From: a virus | Virus genome (UHGV): UHGV-1375844 | Direction: 5' to 3' (one strand) | Length of the DNA stretch: 64,000 nt | Shown here: piece after piece, positions 39,046-51,791 of the stretch | Numbering within the stretch: position 1 is the stretch's first letter | How the letters are laid out: the number at the start of each line of letters is the position of its first letter | Program-made: the position numbers and the translations under genes | The notes under the pieces: generated by a model | What the model was told of the DNA's origin: nothing | The model's input: the letters and a program-made list of their open reading frames with translations, nothing else | Database searches by the model: none

Positions 39046-39066
39046 GATAAGTAAGTCATTACTTAT
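39046..39066. promoter_or_regulatory. dispersed palindromic motif copy (GATAAGTAAGTCATTACTTAT)
   Basis: Between the PhoH start and the plus-strand AT-rich gene. Confidence 0.5.
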
Positions 39067-39205
39067 TTATCGTGGCTTTGTGCTAGGTTAAAACAGCTTT
39101 GGGGAGCTGGTGCGCTTAAGGCCTTCCAGAAAACTCAAACTAGCTGAAATAGTAGGGTCAATTAGGTATCATTCCTTTTCAAATTTAACCAAAGACTCTT
39201 ATAAA

Positions 39206-40438
39206 ATGCCTGCTTTGTTAATTCTCATAATTGGGACATTGATGATTATTTTCTGGGATGTGATTAAGGAAAACGTAGAGGTTATAGGTACGCTTGCCAC
39301 TTCACTTGCCTTTTTTGCTACTGCCTGGGCTGCTTACGAGGCAAGGCATAGTGCAAAGGCGGCAATGAAGGCGACCCAGCTGACGGCTGATTCACTTCTT
39401 GAAATGAAAAAAGCCTCTTTTAAGGAGTGGTACGGCATTTTACTTGAACAGCATAATAAATTACTTGAGGATGTTAATAAGACCTTATTGGATGACAATG
39501 AACTTAATACCAGGTTGAATATTAATGTCATAAGAGGTATTTATTATCACGTAACCAAAAATCCTGCTTACATTAAGTATATTAATCACATAATTTTAAT
39601 CCTGAATTATGTAGATAAAGACTTTTATCTGCCGTCCTCGGCGGAAAATGAAAAGAGATCTTATATAGAACAGTTGCGCAACAGCATTAGCCCAAAAGTA
39701 AGCCTGCTGATTGCTATTTTTGGCCTTAATATCGACAATAATAAAACTTATGATGCAAAGAAACTTTACAACCTTCTAAGCAAATATAACTTTTTTGAAA
39801 ATGAGCTATTTTTTGAAGTTGCAATATCAAAAGTTCATTACTTAGACACTTATGTCGCCGAGATATTTGACAAAGAATACCGAAAAGACGTTGAATTTTA
39901 TGTTGATGAAACGGTTTGTGGTCGTGCGCTCTCTTTTATCAATACGACATGCCGACACCATAGGATTACTTTCGCAGTTCAGTGGTCTTACAACAACCCC
40001 TGCCAAAAGCATTTGCTGAAAAGATTCAATGACCTACCTATGCACATGAGAAACGTCATTGGGCTGAACATGGAAAAAGCAGCCGAGAAAGTGGCTACGT
40101 TTAATTCTGAGTTGCCTGGTTTTGTCGGCTGGGAAATTAAGATTGCTAATAATAAGGTGAGAGTAATTAAGGATGAAAAAGAACTGAAAAGGCTAATAAA
40201 GCTTTACTATAAATACCCCTTTGACCCTCGACAAACTGGTATCGTGTTAACCAATGGTTTCACCAATAGATTCGCCGATGAGATTAGGAATAGTATGTCT
40301 AGCTATGCTTTACATAAAGCCTATCTAGAACTCAGCTCTAATCCGAACAAAGATCAGGTAATTGATGAGATTGTGTCAGAGGTTGAAAAAATGGTCGATA
40401 AATTTAAAACAGAACTTAATTCTTTCTGCTTTAACTGA
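39206..40438 (+). CDS. membrane-anchored protein of unknown function (two N-terminal TM helices plus ~350 aa domain); AT-rich moron
   Basis: Hydrophobic segments MPALLILIIGTLMIIFW and VIGTLATSLAFFATAWAAY; plus strand; visibly AT-rich; followed by terminator. Confidence 0.5.
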   Translation: MPALLILIIGTLMIIFWDVIKENVEVIGTLATSLAFFATAWAAYEARHSAKAAMKATQLTADSLLEMKKASFKEWYGILLEQHNKLLEDVNKTLLDDNELNTRLNINVIRGIYYHVTKNPAYIKYINHIILILNYVDKDFYLPSSAENEKRSYIEQLRNSISPKVSLLIAIFGLNIDNNKTYDAKKLYNLLSKYNFFENELFFEVAISKVHYLDTYVAEIFDKEYRKDVEFYVDETVCGRALSFINTTCRHHRITFAVQWSYNNPCQKHLLKRFNDLPMHMRNVIGLNMEKAAEKVATFNSELPGFVGWEIKIANNKVRVIKDEKELKRLIKLYYKYPFDPRQTGIVLTNGFTNRFADEIRNSMSSYALHKAYLELSSNPNKDQVIDEIVSEVEKMVDKFKTELNSFCFN

Positions 40439-40448
40439 CTAAAAGAAA

Positions 40449-40475
40449 AGGGGCCGAAGCCCCTTTGGATTTTGC
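40449..40475 (+). terminator. rho-independent terminator (AGGGGC-cgaa-GCCCCT, T-rich tail)
   Basis: Hairpin followed by TTTGGATTTT directly after the AT-rich gene. Confidence 0.65.
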
Positions 40476-40638
40476 GCTGAAAAAAGTCTAACTACGATGC
40501 TAAGAAGCACTATGGTTAAGAACGTCTGCCGTGTCTATCACAGCGTTGAACGGTCTGGGTGACGTTAGCGGAGTCATTTAGTGAATGGAATCCCAAACCG
40601 TTCAGCGATGTGCTGGCCTCCGCAGAGGCCAGTCGGTA

Positions 40639-41250
40639 TTACGATTTGCCGGCGTTAACTACCACGCCCTGGCGACGAGAGTCAGCTTCGGCAATCTTCA
40701 GTCGAGTTTCGCGTTCGGCCTTCAGCTCGCCCTGCAATTGGGCCACCTGCGACTCAAGGAACTCGATACGAGAGTCTTTCGCGGCGCTGGATGCGTTCAG
40801 TTCCGCCATTTCCACACGATGATCAGACTTCAGCTGGTTGACTTCCGCAGTAAATTTGCTGGCAGCTGCGCTATAGCCAGCTTCGCGAGCTGTGTTAACC
40901 GCCTCTTCGTTGTTGTCCAGCGCGTTTTCAAGATCGCGCTTAAGCTGAGTCAGCTCGACGTTGGAAATGCTGGCCAGACCGCGCTTCTTCATCAGATCCG
41001 CAAGTACGCCATCTTCGTTTTCGATTACCTTCAGACGCAGTTCCGCAGCCTTTTCTCGCTCTTTACTTGCGAACTGGCTATCCAGACCAGCCAGCTCAGC
41101 CTGGCGATATTCAATTTCTTCGGCCAACGTAACGCTGGTTTGTGAAAGGGTGTTCAGCTCGGTCGCAACCTTCGCCATATCACCGGCAGCTTTAACCATT
41201 GCTTTGGTGGAACGCTCAGTTAGGGAGATGACTTTCTTAACTTCGGACAT
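40639..41250 (-). CDS. coiled-coil protein of unknown function
   Basis: Heptad-like, charge-rich sequence throughout. Confidence 0.4.
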   Translation of the reverse strand: MSEVKKVISLTERSTKAMVKAAGDMAKVATELNTLSQTSVTLAEEIEYRQAELAGLDSQFASKEREKAAELRLKVIENEDGVLADLMKKRGLASISNVELTQLKRDLENALDNNEEAVNTAREAGYSAAASKFTAEVNQLKSDHRVEMAELNASSAAKDSRIEFLESQVAQLQGELKAERETRLKIAEADSRRQGVVVNAGKS

Positions 41251-41275
41251 GTGTTTTCCTTCGTCGCTTTTATAT

Positions 41276-41362
41276 TGGCGGAAGGTAATGGAATCGAACC
41301 ATCACCGCGCTCGCAGTGGGACGGTTTTCAAGACCGCTTGAGCACCATGCTCCCTACCTTCC
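41276..41362 (-). tRNA. tRNA-Ser (anticodon TGA), type II with long variable arm
   Basis: Hand-folded: 7 bp acceptor GGAAGGT/ACCTTCC, anticodon loop CTTGAAA, T-loop TTCGATT, encoded CCA. Confidence 0.7.
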
Positions 41363-41604
41363 GTTATTTAGTGTGGTGGCCGGCGCTGATCTCCGGCATA
41401 ACAACCCGACTTAAATTCGCGACTTTAAATCGGTTCCTCCGTTTGTCCACTTTAGCCCGGAGTTAGCAACCTCAGTCACTCACCGATATGCCTATCGGTG
41501 GCGCGCATCAGCCTGCGCATTCACCACAACGGTGAGAGCACTCTTGGCGAACCTGTAGATTGGGCTATGATCCCGTTACAAGCGAATGCTCTTACCTGTT
41601 GTGT

Positions 41605-41737
41605 TGGTGCCGGTTAACGGACTCGAACCGTTGACCTCTGGCCTAACATCGGATCGTTGTCATTGACCAGCCATGCTGTCTACCGAAGTAGAAACGATGC
41701 TTTGGCTCTCGCGCTCTACCAACTGAGCTAAACCGGC
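41605..41737 (-). tRNA. tRNA-like gene with ~57 nt insertion between D-arm and T-arm (possible pseudogene or interrupted tRNA)
   Basis: Canonical acceptor GCCGGTT/AACCGGC, D-arm TAGCTCAGTTGGTAGAGC, T-arm AACGG-TTCGAGT-CCGTT and CCA, but 133 nt long and no canonical anticodon arm found. Confidence 0.4.
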
Positions 41738-41739
41738 AT

Positions 41740-41814
41740 TGGCGATGATGGGTGGATTCGAACCACCGACCAGTTGATTAACAGTCAACCGCTCTACCAC
41801 TGAGCTACACCATC
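41740..41814 (-). tRNA. tRNA-Asn (anticodon GTT)
   Basis: Hand-folded cloverleaf: D-arm GCTC/GAGC, anticodon arm GTTGA-CTGTTAA-TCAAC, T-arm GGTGG-TTCGAAT-CCACC, encoded CCA. Confidence 0.8.
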
Positions 41815-42533
41815 AATTTCGCAGCGGTACTGGCTTCAAAGATGAAGTTTTCCCGCAACTTGCACTTTGCGTTAGTGCCAGACGAGGCTTGCGGCTCGCT
41901 CAAATAGAGCGAAGATCTTAAACACTGCTCGGTGCTTCAGAGAGCGCCGGGGAGTCAGATCTTATTGGATGTATGGAATCATCCGTGTTGTGGCAGCTAC
42001 ATGCTAAAACCAGAGGGTATTACTATTGCCACAACGTTGAGGCCACTAAACCAGTAATGTTTGCCCAACATCTTTGTCAGTCGCTACAGCCTCTGTGGAT
42101 TCACCTGTATGATTGAAAGAAACAGTGGCCTCAACGTTGTGTGCTGGCTAACCAGGCCAGCCGGGTTACGTCGCCGATCTTCTTTAACCCAAGACAAAAC
42201 GACATAAGTAATGGAAATGACGTAACAGGATGAACGGTCGATAACTGAAACCGGGATAGGTGAATGGAATGAGGAAACCAACCGCCCATCCTGTTACTTC
42301 ATCGGAGAGGGCATGGGTGGTGCCGTATCATGCCCTCTCCTGCGTTCTGCAATCACACTCGCTCAGTGTGTCCCATTTCGGTGACGAGGCTGGAAACTGA
42401 CCTCGCTGGTGTTTGGCTTATTATGCTACTGCCAGATACTGATTGTCGTTTGCAGTTATCTTTAAACGTTCAAACAGTCGCGTACTAACGAAAACAAAGC
42501 AATCTTATACATATCATAAAAATAAGTAAATAC

Positions 42534-42839
42534 TTATCTATCGGTTATGCGTTCAGTTGATAACTTTTTGATCAGAGTCCCCTTCGAAGAGGGGGTTCGT
42601 GAGACAGTGGCGGTAAATCGCTTACCGTGGATAGTAATACTCTCGTGCTCCTTCAGTTCCCCATAGCGGATTTCCAATAGGGCGCCAAGACGCCATAGTC
42701 CATCATCGATACGCTTTTTACTGGCAAACTTTATCAGCAACCATTTCACAATAAATTGGCCTGCAGCGAATGCGCACGCAACGCCAGCTGCCGTAAAGTA
42801 GGCGACCAGCCACCAGTCGAGTGAGGTCAGTTCCGTCAT
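42534..42839 (-). CDS. membrane protein (N-terminal TM helix, 101 aa)
   Basis: WWLVAYFTAAGVACAFAAGQFIV hydrophobic segment; ATGA overlap with the upstream small ORF. Confidence 0.4.
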   Translation of the reverse strand: MTELTSLDWWLVAYFTAAGVACAFAAGQFIVKWLLIKFASKKRIDDGLWRLGALLEIRYGELKEHESITIHGKRFTATVSRTPSSKGTLIKKLSTERITDR

Positions 42840-49720: not shown

Positions 49721-50131
49721 CTATTTTTCGATAACTCTTTGTTCAACTTCTTGCATCTGCTTTTCAGTGAGACTAGAAATGTGTTGATTCAGCAACAGAT
49801 TGCGGTAGAAACTTTTTTGAGCCTCCGATAAATCCTGTCGCTTATCAATGTTTCTCAAAGCATTGCCGTAACTCTCGCTGATCGCATCACCATTGAATGC
49901 CTCAATAATGGTTTTCACATTCATAGCCAAGACGCCAAAGATAAAACAACCAGTGTTGTATACCCAGTCTACAACAAACCCTTTGGCGTACAAGAAAGGG
50001 GTTAAAATGTGAAGAATAACCCAAAGCAAAGCGCCAATTATTATTCCAAAAGCAGTTCTAAGCGGATAGCCCAAAAACAGAATATCTATTGCCCGATTTA
50101 AATTCCGACTAAAGAAATCATGATCTGGCAT
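49721..50131 (-). CDS. small integral membrane protein (2-3 TM), AT-rich
   Basis: Hydrophobic segments IIIGALLWVILHILTPFLY and GCFIFGVLAM; visibly AT-rich. Confidence 0.45.
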   Translation of the reverse strand: MPDHDFFSRNLNRAIDILFLGYPLRTAFGIIIGALLWVILHILTPFLYAKGFVVDWVYNTGCFIFGVLAMNVKTIIEAFNGDAISESYGNALRNIDKRQDLSEAQKSFYRNLLLNQHISSLTEKQMQEVEQRVIEK

Positions 50132-50762
50132 CTAAAACCCCCTTTCCCAATTCTTCCCCTGGAATTTCTTCCGAGGCAGGGGTATTAAATATTTTACGCC
50201 TTCTGCCGCTTCCACCATCATCGATCTTGTCGATATTATTTTCGATGAACTTTAAAAGCTGTATAGCCTCTGTACTATTGTTGCCGTAAAACCCTTTGGA
50301 AATACGATATGTCAGAACGCGCTCTTTCAGCTCAAGTAAAACAAAGACAACAATCCCGATAATAGTTACAATGGGGCTAAAGCCCCAAAAGTAACCCATT
50401 GAAGCACCAAGAAAAATCATCAGCACCGATAAAAACTTAACCTTAAGGAAGGTTTTTTTCTCATATAAAAGATAAAGCTCGGAAATAGTTTTCCTTTTCA
50501 AAAACTCTTGCTCTTTCTTTAAATTGTCCTCATGTTTTGCTTTTATCTCTTGTAATTTTATTCTGTACTCTTCTGATTTTATATAACTCAATGTATTACG
50601 ATACAAGAAACTACATACCATACCTATCATTGAGCCAATAACAGAAATGACACCTTGGTTTGAAATTCCCAACAACCCCATAACCTTTCCAAAGATCACG
50701 GCGGCTATAATGGCTAACATTAGACCTACGAACCATCCGAAATGTCTATTCAGGAATTTCAT
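50118..50762 (-). CDS. integral membrane protein (~4 TM), AT-rich
   Basis: Hydrophobic segments near N-terminus and mid-protein, K/E-rich loop; overlaps the downstream gene. Confidence 0.45.
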   Translation of the reverse strand: MKFLNRHFGWFVGLMLAIIAAVIFGKVMGLLGISNQGVISVIGSMIGMVCSFLYRNTLSYIKSEEYRIKLQEIKAKHEDNLKKEQEFLKRKTISELYLLYEKKTFLKVKFLSVLMIFLGASMGYFWGFSPIVTIIGIVVFVLLELKERVLTYRISKGFYGNNSTEAIQLLKFIENNIDKIDDGGSGRRRKIFNTPASEEIPGEELGKGVLDARS

Positions 50763-50766
50763 TATA

Positions 50767-51126
50767 TTAGCCTTTCTTCATCAGCTCGCGCTTGATCTCG
50801 TCTGTGCGCATCGTGACGTCAGCAGCGGTGATCGCCTCGTTCAGTTTCACAATGTCCTCGATTTCCTGCGGCGACTTCTCTGCCAGATGGTAAATGGCTG
50901 CACGAATCACGTCAGAACGGGTGAACTTCTCAAAGCGAGGGATGAATTTCATCATCTCCAGCAGATCGAAGTATTCGTCCTCCAGCGACATGGTACGGCT
51001 CTTTATTTTCTCTTTCCCACGAGTCGGGCGGCCCTGTGGTCTGACTGGCTGGCGCAACGGCGTGCTGTTTTTGGCCGGAGCATCCGGTTCTTTGCGCTTG
51101 GCAAGGTCTCCCATCTTCATGGACAT
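50767..51126 (-). CDS. putative partition centromere-binding protein (ParG/ParB-like partner of ParA)
   Basis: Small basic protein immediately downstream of parA with overlapping stop/start. Confidence 0.45.
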   Translation of the reverse strand: MSMKMGDLAKRKEPDAPAKNSTPLRQPVRPQGRPTRGKEKIKSRTMSLEDEYFDLLEMMKFIPRFEKFTRSDVIRAAIYHLAEKSPQEIEDIVKLNEAITAADVTMRTDEIKRELMKKG

Positions 51127-51791
51127 TACTCTTCCTCCAGACTCAAGATATAATCAACAAACTGTTCAAACTCGGCTTCTGCCTTCTTGTCGCGTTCGGC
51201 GCCAGTCATTTCAAAGATAGAGCGACCAGCCTCTTCTGCATCATCGTAAACGTTACGGTTGTACAAATTGACCGGTGCAGCTTCGATACCAAACGTCTCA
51301 ACGATTTCTTTGGCGGCCAGAATACGCGACACCTGGGAAGGTAGTGACGGGCACTGGTTGATAACGGCACGTATTTTCACCTTCTCGTTCACATTGCGTA
51401 CATTGTCGATAATCGGGTCGATGTCGCGCAGCGATTTCAGGTCACGACGTTTAGGGCGCAGCGGTATGACGATAACATCAGCCATCAGCATAGCTTGTCG
51501 CTGGATTTCGGAGTCGAAGCCCCCTGCGTCTACAACCACGTAATCGAAGCGCCCCTGAAGCGATTTGAGATGCTTAACGACGTCTTCCTGAACGTAAGCG
51601 AAAGGAATGAGATCGAGATCTTCATTCTGTCGACGGTCTTCGCACCAGCTGGTAGTGGTGCGCTGGATGTCGATGTCGGTAACTTGGATTTTCTTTTTCT
51701 TTTTGACTTTCAGGCAAACCGCTATTTGCTGGGCAACGGTCGATTTACCCGGGCCACCCTTCGTGCCGCCAACCACAATGATCCTAGTCAT
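51126..51791 (-). CDS. parA: ParA/Soj-family partition ATPase (small type Ib)
   Basis: Deviant Walker A VVGGTKGGPGKST; 221 aa. Confidence 0.85.
   Translation of the reverse strand: MTRIIVVGGTKGGPGKSTVAQQIAVCLKVKKKKKIQVTDIDIQRTTTSWCEDRRQNEDLDLIPFAYVQEDVVKHLKSLQGRFDYVVVDAGGFDSEIQRQAMLMADVIVIPLRPKRRDLKSLRDIDPIIDNVRNVNEKVKIRAVINQCPSLPSQVSRILAAKEIVETFGIEAAPVNLYNRNVYDDAEEAGRSIFEMTGAERDKKAEAEFEQFVDYILSLEEE

What the first reader, a model, noticed from the sequence alone, without database searches (positions are those of the whole stretch)
39110..40475. AT-rich opposite-strand gene for a membrane-anchored protein: candidate single-gene defence or exclusion factor
This gene is on the plus strand in a minus-strand region, is visibly AT-rich, has its own terminator, and is wedged between PhoH and a coiled-coil gene. 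It encodes two N-terminal TM helices plus a ~350 aa domain with no motif I recognise, which is the typical footprint of an acquired abortive-infection or superinfection-exclusion moron.
Basis: partly seen in the sequence, partly recalled or inferred. Interest (0 to 1): 0.7.

Follow-up and report, generated by a model that had tools for sequence, protein, structure and literature searches.

The report
Divergent AbiC-like membrane defence gene
This AT-rich, opposite-strand gene on a Salmonella phage-plasmid is real and encodes a membrane-anchored protein distantly related to the AbiC/AbiP abortive-infection proteins, so it is most likely an unrecognised member of a known anti-phage family.

Summary
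A plus-strand ORF ends at 40438, and its best-supported start is ATG 39206 (410 aa), not GTG 39110. It lies among minus-strand genes, is the most AT-rich stretch of the window (36.8% vs 49.5% GC), and has a hairpin terminator.

The window is an SSU5-type phage-plasmid, 99.8% identical to Salmonella pSA20094620.2. Alone, the protein misses the Pfam cut-off for PF16872 (putAbiC). Its family profile, however, aligns with PF16872-passing proteins at hhalign E=5e-50. Half of those ten proteins hit the PADLOC AbiC model and two hit AbiP. No solved structure resembles the confident AlphaFold model.

The gene is not a strain-specific insertion:
- About 20% of SSU5-type plasmids carry an allele (30-99% identity) in the same accessory slot.
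- Other plasmids hold AbiGi, an unknown membrane protein or resistance genes there.
- Homologues sit alone in P2-like and lambdoid prophage moron sites and in defence islands.
- It is under purifying selection, though looser than PhoH (dN/dS 0.19-0.30 vs 0.05).

Best reading: a single-gene, membrane-anchored abortive-infection or exclusion factor of the AbiC/P group. It is a new member of a known kind, and its function is untested.

The parts
39144..39172 (+). Predicted sigma-70-type promoter (CTGAAA-17 nt-TATCAT) for the AbiC-like gene
   Evidence: Consensus scan. The block 39137-39205 is nearly invariant in four phage-plasmids, while the 50 nt upstream of it are variable. Predicted only; no transcript data.
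39206..40438 (+). CDS of the AbiC/P-like protein (410 aa plus stop). Best-supported start is ATG 39206.
   Evidence: ORF. The MP(A/V)LLIL N-terminus is shared by homologues down to 35% identity. dN/dS is 0.19-0.30 against relatives. Full-length match to phrog_18168, E = 5e-153. hhalign E = 4.7e-50 to PF16872-passing proteins.
39110..39205 (+). In-frame upstream extension from GTG 39110, included in the finding's coordinates. Probably 5' leader and promoter, not coding.
   Evidence: The GTG is replaced by ACA and a 1-nt indel shifts the frame in pG6809-1. Distant homologues lack the extension.
39209..39259 (+). Transmembrane helix 1 (aa 2-18)
   Evidence: Kyte-Doolittle 19-residue mean up to 2.4. 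Helix 2-15 in the AlphaFold model.
39275..39343 (+). Transmembrane helix 2 (aa 24-46), running into the juxtamembrane motif ATAWAAYEARxSAKAAMKA. This is the most conserved segment of the close family.
   Evidence: Information content is 3.8-4.0 bits against a mean of 2.66. W41, A43, E45 and A46 are invariant. It is a continuous helix 24-96 in the model. The acidic loop (DVIKENVE) and basic C-flank (R47, K51, K55) imply N-in/C-in topology; this step is inferred from the positive-inside rule.
39575..39802 (+). PF16872 (putAbiC)-like core (aa 124-199). Together with the upstream LLEQHN motif (aa 79-84) it is the part conserved across the whole superfamily.
   Evidence: Pfam E = 0.003, 18.4 bits, below the cut-off of 22. 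The equivalent segment passes the cut-off in 10 of 10 relatives tested. It is the most conserved block in the 69-sequence alignment.
39821..40435 (+). Variable C-terminal half (aa 206-410): helices plus a small three-stranded sheet. Candidate specificity or sensor region.
   Evidence: Lowest conservation in the superfamily, 0.8-0.9 bits against 2.35 for the core. Confidently modelled apart from the linker 246-249. The sensor role is inferred.
40447..40475 (.). Hairpin terminator (stem 40447-40466, then U-run), shared with the convergent 203-aa gene
   Evidence: Terminator scan. Folding gives -14.7 kcal/mol, z = -2.6.
38226..38999 (-). phoH, the left border of the accessory slot
   Evidence: RefSeq annotation of the 99.8%-identical plasmid. 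It is 89-99% conserved in 519 plasmids.
40639..41250 (-). 203-aa neighbour ('coiled-coil'). Not linked to the AbiC-like gene.
   Evidence: It is absent from relatives that have the AbiC-like gene (L002-L004, L017). It is present (58% identity) in pFF979_1, which lacks the AbiC-like gene. No Pfam or PADLOC family.
41276..41814 (-). tRNA-Ser and tRNA-Asn cluster, the right border of the accessory slot
   Evidence: ARAGORN and Rfam. The cluster is conserved in SSU5- and P1-type elements.

Best explanation
The gene encodes a single-protein, inner-membrane-anchored anti-phage factor. It is a divergent enterobacterial branch of the putAbiC (PF16872) / lactococcal AbiC-AbiP group. It is carried as a self-contained moron in the accessory slot of an SSU5-type phage-plasmid.

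Proposed working:
1. It is transcribed from its own promoter while the element resides as a plasmid. (Inferred from the predicted, conserved promoter and the opposite orientation.)
2. An N-terminal hairpin of two helices inserts it in the inner membrane, with the roughly 360-aa all-alpha domain in the cytoplasm. (Inferred from hydrophobicity and charge distribution.)
3. The conserved core (LLEQHN motif plus the PF16872 segment) and the conserved second membrane helix form the effector. The fast-evolving C-terminal half sets which invading phage component is recognised. (Inferred from the conservation pattern.)
4. Recognition aborts the infection, most plausibly by disturbing the membrane or late phage expression. 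(By analogy only. AbiC lowers capsid protein production. AbiP binds RNA/ssDNA, needs its membrane anchor and is triggered by a phage major tail protein. The AbiP-like PdpSau depolarises the membrane on infection.)

Shown here: a real gene under selection, superfamily membership, solitary and mobile genomic behaviour, and residence in a hotspot.

Not shown: expression, topology, any phage-resistance phenotype, or the killing mechanism.
For: Homology:
- 51 of 69 full-length relatives found by an exhaustive profile search match PF16872.
- 10 of 10 tested explicitly pass Pfam's cut-off at the equivalent position.
- The close-family profile aligns with those ten at hhalign probability 100%, E = 4.7e-50, over 332 columns from the first membrane helix onward.
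- One of them finds this plasmid by plain tblastn, E = 2e-17.
- 5 of the ten hit the PADLOC AbiC model (best 1.3e-6) and 2 hit AbiP.

Architecture: two N-terminal membrane helices plus an extra-membrane helical domain that has no fold match. A 2026 review reports the same for AbiC (PMC13064643).

Genomic behaviour:
- The gene is solitary, with no conserved neighbour across contexts.
- It lies on the opposite strand in a P2-like prophage between gpV and gpS.
- It lies on the opposite strand in a lambdoid prophage between the replication and Q modules.
- It lies at the cargo end of a CP4-57-like island.
- It lies next to Lamassu-type genes and next to a methyltransferase in an integrase island.

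Slot: other SSU5-type plasmids hold AbiGi (Pfam 90.7 bits, PADLOC 7e-43), an unknown AT-rich membrane protein, or IS/sul1 at the same place.

Evolution: dN/dS is 0.19-0.30 against 0.05 for adjacent phoH. Alleles range from 99% to 30% identity while PhoH stays at 86-99%.

Mechanistic analogies: PMC12184496 and PMC10127798.
Against: - The protein itself fails the Pfam gathering cut-off (18.4 against 22 bits) and matches no PADLOC model.
- The link to the experimentally studied lactococcal AbiC and AbiP is indirect. It goes through HMM hits of relatives at E of about 1e-6 to 1e-4. I could not obtain the lactococcal sequences for a direct comparison.
- PF16872 is itself only a 'putative' annotation.
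- No member of this enterobacterial branch has a published phenotype in the searched literature.
- The mechanisms of AbiC and AbiP are unresolved and apparently differ from each other.
- The gene is absent from all 50,697 records of the phage collection.
- Promoter, topology and terminator are predictions.
Confidence: 0.6

Rival explanations
1. It is a superinfection-exclusion protein. Sitting in the inner membrane, it blocks DNA entry or an early membrane step of incoming phages without killing the host. That would make it non-abortive, in the manner of P22 SieA or T4 Imm.
For: It is membrane-anchored, prophage- or phage-plasmid-encoded, single-gene and in a moron position. The very conserved second membrane helix and juxtamembrane motif could be an interaction surface in the membrane.
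Against: Nearly all of the protein (about 360 aa) is predicted to be cytoplasmic, and the periplasmic loop is only about 6 residues (inference from charge distribution). Its sequence relatives match the AbiC and AbiP models, proteins that act after DNA entry. No similarity to known Sie families appeared in Pfam, PADLOC or PHROGs.
Confidence: 0.15
2. It serves the phage-plasmid itself, for example as a membrane tether, a modulator of lysis or assembly, or a post-segregational toxin that stabilises the plasmid. On this reading it does not act against other phages.
For: It sits in a fixed position next to the phoH-grxA block, and dS similar to phoH indicates long co-residence with the backbone. 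Membrane proteins with toxic potential can act as addiction modules.
Against: Only about 139 of about 637 SSU5-type plasmids carry it. SSU5 itself and every virion-derived record in the phage collection lack it. It is interchangeable with unrelated cargo. Homologues occur alone in unrelated element types (P2-like, lambdoid, integrative islands, chromosome), which argues against a role specific to the SSU5 life cycle. No antitoxin-like partner is conserved.
Confidence: 0.1
3. It is an accessory membrane protein with a host-directed function unrelated to phages, such as stress, envelope or competition. The 'abortive infection' family name would then be misleading for this branch.
For: PF16872 is annotated only as 'putative'. 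The window protein is below the cut-off, and its C-terminal half has no counterpart of known function.
Against: Family members recur in recognised defence locations: a P2-like S/V moron site, next to Lamassu-type genes, next to a methyltransferase, and in the same slot as AbiGi. The allelic divergence is typical of conflict genes.
Confidence: 0.12
4. It is not a functional gene, only a chance ORF or a decaying remnant in AT-rich DNA.
For: There is no clear Shine-Dalgarno sequence before ATG 39206.
Against: Long stop-free frames are unlikely in AT-rich DNA. dN/dS is 0.19-0.30 with dS of 0.5-2.4. There are 135 cluster representatives in an exhaustive search. The AlphaFold model is confident (pLDDT 85.6). 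The length of about 400-430 aa is kept in dozens of genera.
Confidence: 0.02

Closest known systems
Pfam PF16872 (putAbiC, 'putative phage abortive infection protein') proteins of Proteobacteria
   Same: Same length class (about 400-480 aa). Same N-terminal membrane helices with the AxAWAAxEAR(K)SA motif, the same LLEQHN motif and the same core segment. Homology runs over about 330 residues (hhalign E = 4.7e-50). They are also solitary genes in mobile-element cargo regions.
   Different: The window protein and most of its close family (19 of 26) fall below Pfam's threshold. Core residues differ: canonical SPYMRxLYHLLK is YIKYINHIILIL here, and FDFFEH is YNFFEN. The C-terminal third aligns poorly. 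The branch is filed only as phrog_18168, 'unknown function'.
Lactococcal AbiC (Prf, pTN20) and AbiP (pIL2614), the 'AbiC/P group'
   Different: The relation is remote and indirect, with no direct hit of this protein to either model. The host phylum differs (Enterobacterales against Lactococcus) and so does the carrier (phage-plasmid or prophage against conjugative plasmid). The phenotypes known for AbiC (less major capsid protein) and AbiP (RNA/ssDNA binding, tail-protein trigger) are untested here.
PdpSau of Staphylococcus aureus prophages
   Same: A prophage-encoded, membrane-anchored single protein with a cytoplasmic domain. It gives abortive infection with membrane depolarisation and was reported to be structurally similar to AbiP (PMC10127798). 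It is the best functional analogy for a temperate-element-borne AbiC/P-like protein.
   Different: It has 278 aa, one membrane helix and an OB-fold-like, positively charged C-terminal domain. No sequence relation to the window protein was tested or seen here.
AbiGi in the same slot of Klebsiella SSU5-type plasmids (e.g. NZ_CP134044.1)
   Same: Same position (after phoH, opposite strand), AT-rich (34% GC) and belonging to an abortive-infection family.
   Different: It is an unrelated protein family with no membrane anchor, and it is normally part of a two-gene AbiG system.

Membership tests
Pfam PF16872 putAbiC | The protein scores at or above the curated gathering cut-off (22 bits) against the PF16872 model | tested here: not met
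   18.2-18.4 bits, E = 0.003, aa 124-199 matching model positions 8-74 of 80. Only 7 of 26 close-family members reach E <= 0.01.
Pfam PF16872 putAbiC (superfamily level) | Significant profile-level homology to proteins that do pass the PF16872 cut-off, in register with the domain | tested here: met
   10 of 10 relatives pass the cut-off (24-38 bits) at the equivalent position. hhalign of the close family against these ten gives probability 100%, E = 4.7e-50, over 332 columns. tblastn of P0091 finds this plasmid at 2e-17. 51 of 69 relatives hit PF16872.
AbiC/P group (lactococcal AbiC, AbiP) | Sequence match to AbiC or AbiP reference models | tested here: inconclusive
   The window protein has no PADLOC hit. 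Its relatives do: AbiC 6 of 69 and 5 of 10 (best 1.3e-6), AbiP 4 of 69 and 2 of 10. A direct comparison with the lactococcal sequences was not possible because they were not retrievable.
AbiC/P group | N-terminal membrane anchor (two helices in AbiC, one in AbiP) followed by a soluble helical domain | tested here: met
   Hydrophobic helix aa 2-18 and amphipathic helix aa 24-46, followed by an all-alpha domain, pLDDT 85.6. Architecture as described in PMC13064643. Membrane insertion itself was not tested.
AbiC/P group | A single gene is sufficient, with no obligatory partner | tested here: met
   No conserved neighbour across phage-plasmid, P2-like, lambdoid, island and chromosomal contexts. 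This is genomic inference only.
AbiC/P group | Confers phage resistance of the abortive type (reduced plating efficiency, infected cells do not yield progeny) | not testable with these tools
   This needs expression and a phage challenge. No published phenotype for this branch was found.
AbiC/P group | Structural superposition of the extra-membrane domain with AbiC or AbiP models | not tested
   The AlphaFold database libraries were unavailable. PDB and BFVD contain no relative.
Abi_C / AbiJ HEPN family (PF14355). Considered only because of the similar name. | C-terminal HEPN R-phi-X(3-5)-H RNase motif and a Pfam Abi_C match | tested here: not met
   No Abi_C hit in the Pfam scans of the protein or of 69 relatives. 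It is an unrelated family (PMC13590631).

The most novel reading that the evidence does not exclude
This is the founding example of a sizeable enterobacterial branch of AbiC/P-like membrane defence proteins that PADLOC and Pfam thresholds both miss. The branch would have its own fast-evolving cytoplasmic C-terminal sensor domain and a conserved membrane hairpin acting as a membrane-disrupting effector. The slot between phoH/grxA and the tRNAs of SSU5-type phage-plasmids would be a previously undescribed defence hotspot. Its other occupants, notably the 529-550-aa AT-rich membrane protein with no family match, would then be new anti-phage genes.
Probability: 0.4. Interest if true: 0.5.

Novelty: new member of a known kind. 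Interest (0 to 1): 0.35.

Why it matters
SSU5-type phage-plasmids are common in clinical Salmonella, Klebsiella, Enterobacter, E. coli and Shigella. A survey of them using DefenseFinder found defence systems to be infrequent. This gene family goes undetected by PADLOC and falls below the Pfam cut-off. It nevertheless sits in about one fifth of these elements, in the same slot that collects AbiGi, CTX-M-64 and sul1. If it is an active anti-phage factor, it would affect which therapeutic or environmental phages can infect carriers. It would also give a tractable Gram-negative model for the mechanistically unresolved AbiC/P group, and it would mark a hotspot worth mining for further defence genes. 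If it is inactive against phages, the 'putative Abi' label of PF16872 would need revisiting for this branch.

Tried and rejected
- Megablast suggested the gene was missing from relatives, which covered only about 70% of the 4-kb query. This was an artefact of DNA divergence. Protein alignment shows orthologues at 72-81% identity in the same place.
- GTG 39110 and the RefSeq start at 39242 were both rejected in favour of ATG 39206.
- A PDB sequence-profile search found nothing.
- NCBIfam found nothing for this protein.
- Three attempts to reach the lactococcal AbiC/AbiP sequences for a direct comparison failed: cluster look-up of short distant relatives, tblastn of a canonical member against plasmids, and a second large profile search.
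- The 203-aa convergent gene is not a partner, because the two genes do not co-occur.
- The Abi_C/HEPN (AbiJ, SadR) literature turned out to concern an unrelated family with a similar name.
- Rfam found only tRNAs in 38500-42600, with no antisense or toxin-antitoxin RNA.
- Papers on P2/P4 hotspots and on DefensePredictor do not mention this family.
Full report
**What the window is.** The 4-kb region around the finding is 99.8% identical to two 106,569-bp IncFIB plasmids of Salmonella enterica: pSA20094620.2 (NZ_CP030187.1) and NZ_CP044180.1. It shares backbone genes (phoH, grxA, Gp49-family gene, DNA ligase, tRNAs) with SSU5-type phage-plasmids of Enterobacter, Klebsiella, Salmonella and E. 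coli.

**Check of the observation.**
- An ORF runs 39110..40438 on the plus strand, 442 aa from GTG.
- All neighbours are on the minus strand: integrase, a 207-aa ORF, grxA, Gp49-family gene, a crAss001_48-like 76-aa gene, phoH, a 203-aa gene, tRNA-Ser, tRNA-Asn and ligase.
- The gene has 36.8% GC against 49.5% for the window and 52-53% for both flanking genes. It is the lowest-GC 1233-nt stretch of the whole 64 kb.
- A G+C-rich 8-bp hairpin at 40447-40466 followed by GGAUUUUG folds at -14.7 kcal/mol (z = -2.6). Its A-tract/U-tract symmetry suits termination of both convergent genes.
- So every descriptive element of the finding is correct. The start codon is the exception.

**Start codon.**
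- In an alignment of the phoH-proximal intergenic region from four phage-plasmids, GTG 39110 is replaced by ACA in pG6809-1. A 1-nt indel also breaks that frame.
- The stretch 39137-39205 is almost invariant. It contains a promoter-like CTGAAA-17-TATCAT at 39144-39172.
- The N-terminus MP(A/V/I)L(L/F)IL encoded from ATG 39206 is kept in homologues down to 35% identity.
- I therefore take 39206..40438 (410 aa) as the gene.
- The RefSeq start (39242, WP_139156587.1) removes most of the first hydrophobic helix.

**Is it a real gene?**
- Against the orthologues in pG6809-1, AnCo3 and pSAN1-1735, dN/dS is 0.19-0.30 at dS 0.53-0.58.
- The adjacent phoH gives dN/dS 0.05 at dS 0.68-1.03.
- The gene is thus under purifying selection, but four to six times less tightly than phoH. 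It has co-diverged with the backbone in these plasmids.
- AlphaFold2, with a 26-sequence alignment, gives a confident model (mean pLDDT 85.6, pTM 0.73). It is almost entirely helical, with a small three-stranded sheet near aa 310-356.

**What family is it?**
- Alone, the protein gives only a sub-threshold Pfam match to PF16872 'putAbiC'. The match is 18.4 bits against a cut-off of 22, at aa 124-199.
- It gives nothing in PADLOC or NCBIfam. It matches phrog_18168, 'unknown function', over its full length (E = 5e-153).
- An exhaustive profile search of 1.84 billion representative proteins found 135 clusters at E <= 1e-3, mostly 400-500 aa.
- Of 69 full-length relatives, 51 match PF16872. Ten tested one by one all pass the curated cut-off, at the position equivalent to aa 124-199.
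- A profile-profile comparison of the close family (A2) with those ten proteins (A4) gives probability 100% and E = 4.7e-50. It covers 332 aligned columns, starting in the first membrane helix.
- One of the ten finds this very plasmid by plain tblastn (33.7% identity, E = 2e-17).
- Five of the ten hit the PADLOC AbiC model (best 1.3e-6) and two hit the AbiP model (6 and 4 of 69).
- The protein is therefore a divergent member of the putAbiC superfamily, which HMM evidence ties to lactococcal AbiC and AbiP.
- That last link is indirect. I could not retrieve the lactococcal sequences for a head-to-head comparison.
- The similarly named Abi_C/HEPN domain of AbiJ and SadR is unrelated.

**Anatomy.**
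- aa 2-18 is strongly hydrophobic.
- aa 24-46 is an Ala/Thr/Gly-rich helix that continues without a break to aa 96 in the model.
- The short loop between them (DVIKENVE) is acidic, and the segment after the second helix (R47, K51, K55) is basic. By the positive-inside rule this implies both ends in the cytoplasm, with the bulk of the protein cytoplasmic. This step is inferred.
- Within the close family the most conserved 15 residues are TAWAAYEARHSAKAA, the end of the second membrane helix and its cytoplasmic flank (4.0 bits against a mean of 2.66).
- Across the superfamily the conserved parts are the LLEQHN motif (aa 79-84), the PF16872 core (aa 121-205) and the second membrane helix.
- The C-terminal half (aa 206-410) is the least conserved, at 0.8-0.9 bits.
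- A conserved membrane-proximal module joined to a variable distal domain is the layout expected of an effector coupled to a specificity or sensor domain. This is inference.

**Distribution and locus.**
- The first impression from megablast, that relatives lack the gene, was wrong. pG6809-1, AnCo3 and pSAN1-1735 have orthologues (81%, 72% and 72% aa identity) on the same strand right after phoH.
- By tblastn, 139 PLSDB plasmids carry a homologue at 99% down to 30% identity. By genus they are Escherichia 72, Klebsiella 37, Enterobacter 18 and Salmonella 6. None of 50,697 phage records does.
- For scale, 637 plasmids carry the SSU5-type ligase and 519 carry the phage-plasmid phoH. About one fifth of these elements therefore have the gene.
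- SSU5 itself lacks both phoH and this gene.
- In plasmids with equally conserved PhoH (87-94%), the same slot holds different cargo:
  - a 39%-identical allele (pKPN115_2);
  - AbiGi (Pfam 90.7 bits, PADLOC 7e-43; NZ_CP134044.1);
  - a 529-550-aa AT-rich membrane protein with no family match (pYZ-58-110k and phage GArcari-2022b, 53% identical to each other);
  - two 184-aa ORFs (pCFSAN027384);
  - IS6100 with sul1 (pKM98_p2);
  - only the 203-aa gene (pFF979_1).
- E. coli elements lacking phoH carry the gene next to grxA. One of them has ISEcp1-blaCTX-M-64 just downstream.
- The interval between the phoH/grxA block and the tRNA/ligase block is thus an accessory-gene hotspot, and the AbiC-like gene is one of its recurrent occupants.
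- The 203-aa 'coiled-coil' neighbour does not co-occur with it and is not a partner.

**Homologues elsewhere.**
- A 62%-identical copy sits on the opposite strand between gpV and gpS of a P2-like prophage. From my own knowledge, this is the position of the non-essential orf30 region of P2.
- A 45% copy sits on the opposite strand between the lambda-P replication module and the RusA/Q module of a lambdoid prophage in Cedecea.
- A 36% copy lies at the cargo end of a CP4-57-like island in Serratia, after CbtA/CbeA and DUF4942.
- A 62% copy is isolated in the Pectobacterium chromosome.
- More distant members lie next to Lamassu-type genes (LmuB_C, MC3, CTD7) in an integrative mobilisable element. 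Another lies directly after an N6-methyltransferase/Eco57I-like gene in an integrase-bounded island.
- No neighbour is shared among these contexts, so this is a single-gene system.
- In all eight contexts examined the gene has 30-38% GC against 44-50% around it.
- AT-richness is therefore a family trait that travels with the gene. It does not show recent acquisition by this plasmid.

**How it most likely works.**
- I propose a single-protein, inner-membrane-anchored anti-phage factor of the AbiC/P kind. It would be expressed from its own promoter while the phage-plasmid is resident.
- The cytoplasmic domain would detect a component of an infecting phage, and the outcome would be aborted infection.
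- The best analogies come from the literature:
  - AbiC lowers major capsid protein production without affecting DNA replication (PMC13064643).
  - AbiP needs its membrane anchor, binds RNA/ssDNA, and becomes toxic when co-expressed with a phage major tail protein (PMC13064643, PMC12184496).
  - The AbiP-like, prophage-encoded PdpSau depolarises and permeabilises the membrane within minutes of infection and stalls phage replication (PMC10127798).
- The unusually conserved second membrane helix, rich in small and polar residues (G28, T32, T39, W41, E45), makes a membrane-perturbing effector plausible. That step is the least secure.
- My confidence that the gene is an anti-phage factor is about 0.6. 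My confidence in the membrane-disruption mechanism specifically is about 0.3.

**Rivals.** A non-abortive superinfection-exclusion role (0.15) fits the membrane location. It fits poorly with a periplasmic loop of about 6 residues and the AbiC/AbiP relationship. A function for the phage-plasmid itself, or plasmid addiction (0.1), is disfavoured by the roughly 20% occurrence, the interchangeability with unrelated cargo, and the presence of homologues in unrelated element types. A host-directed function unrelated to phages (0.12) cannot be excluded, because PF16872 is only a 'putative' label. A spurious ORF is effectively excluded (0.02).

**Novelty and verdict.**
The 'acquired' part needs correcting: the gene is a long-standing, polymorphic occupant of a hotspot.
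- It is a new, divergent member of a known kind (putAbiC / AbiC-P). It is missed by PADLOC and by the Pfam threshold, and it has no experimental data.
- A specialist would find it plausible rather than surprising.
- Its value lies in offering a Gram-negative, clinically widespread entry point to the unresolved AbiC/P mechanism, and in flagging the SSU5 accessory slot as a place to look for further defence genes.
- Interest: 0.35.

Noticed in passing
window 39047-39066: A perfect 8+4+8 palindrome, ATAAGTAA-GTCA-TTACTTAT, lies in the divergent phoH / AbiC-like intergenic region. Three relatives have ATAGGTAA-GTCA-TTACCTAT, so a double compensatory change preserves the palindrome. It overlaps the -35 of the predicted phoH-side promoter (ATGACT-17-TATAGT, 39059-39031). 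It is a candidate operator for an unknown regulator.
   Followed up: partly
L014 1671-3260 (-) and L006 5770-7422 (+): In Klebsiella SSU5-type elements, the slot after phoH holds a 529-550-aa AT-rich (36-37% GC), opposite-strand protein with several hydrophobic segments. It has no Pfam or PADLOC match. The two copies are 53% identical. It is an uncharacterised candidate defence gene.
   Followed up: partly
L016 2539-3393 (-): An AbiGi-family gene (Pfam 90.7 bits, PADLOC 7e-43, 34% GC) occupies the same slot in K. pneumoniae plasmid NZ_CP134044.1. No AbiGii partner is annotated.
   Followed up: partly
window 2559-3647 (+): A second AT-rich island of the window (GC < 0.40) holds a 362-aa ORF on the opposite strand to its neighbours. 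It is lysine-rich, with an HNH-like C-terminal motif (HIVEH...N...H). It has no PDB sequence match.
   Followed up: partly
window 49721-50762 (-): A third AT-rich island holds two small ORFs (136 and 214 aa) with several hydrophobic segments. They lie immediately beside a 119-aa ORF and a ParA-like ATPase gene at 51126-51791.
   Followed up: no
window 41608-41737 (-): Rfam reports a 130-nt tRNA match (46.7 bits) between tRNA-Ser and tRNA-Asn that ARAGORN does not call. It may be an interrupted or unusual tRNA. P1- and P7-type elements annotate tRNA-Thr here.
   Followed up: no
window 39242 (RefSeq start of WP_139156587.1): The RefSeq annotation starts the protein 12 codons downstream of the conserved MPALLIL start. 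This removes most of the first membrane helix. Many database homologues (398 aa) share the truncation.
   Followed up: yes
L019 7193-9236; L013 1-2385: Resistance genes have landed in or next to the same slot. ISEcp1-blaCTX-M-64 lies 2 kb downstream of the AbiC-like gene in E. coli pM-64-1161. IS6100, a GNAT gene and sul1 replace it in Enterobacter pKM98_p2.
   Followed up: no
window 38012-38242 (-): The 76-aa gene downstream of phoH matches Pfam PF21825, 'crAss001_48 related protein' (63 bits). It is a small conserved phage protein of unknown role in the phoH operon.
   Followed up: no
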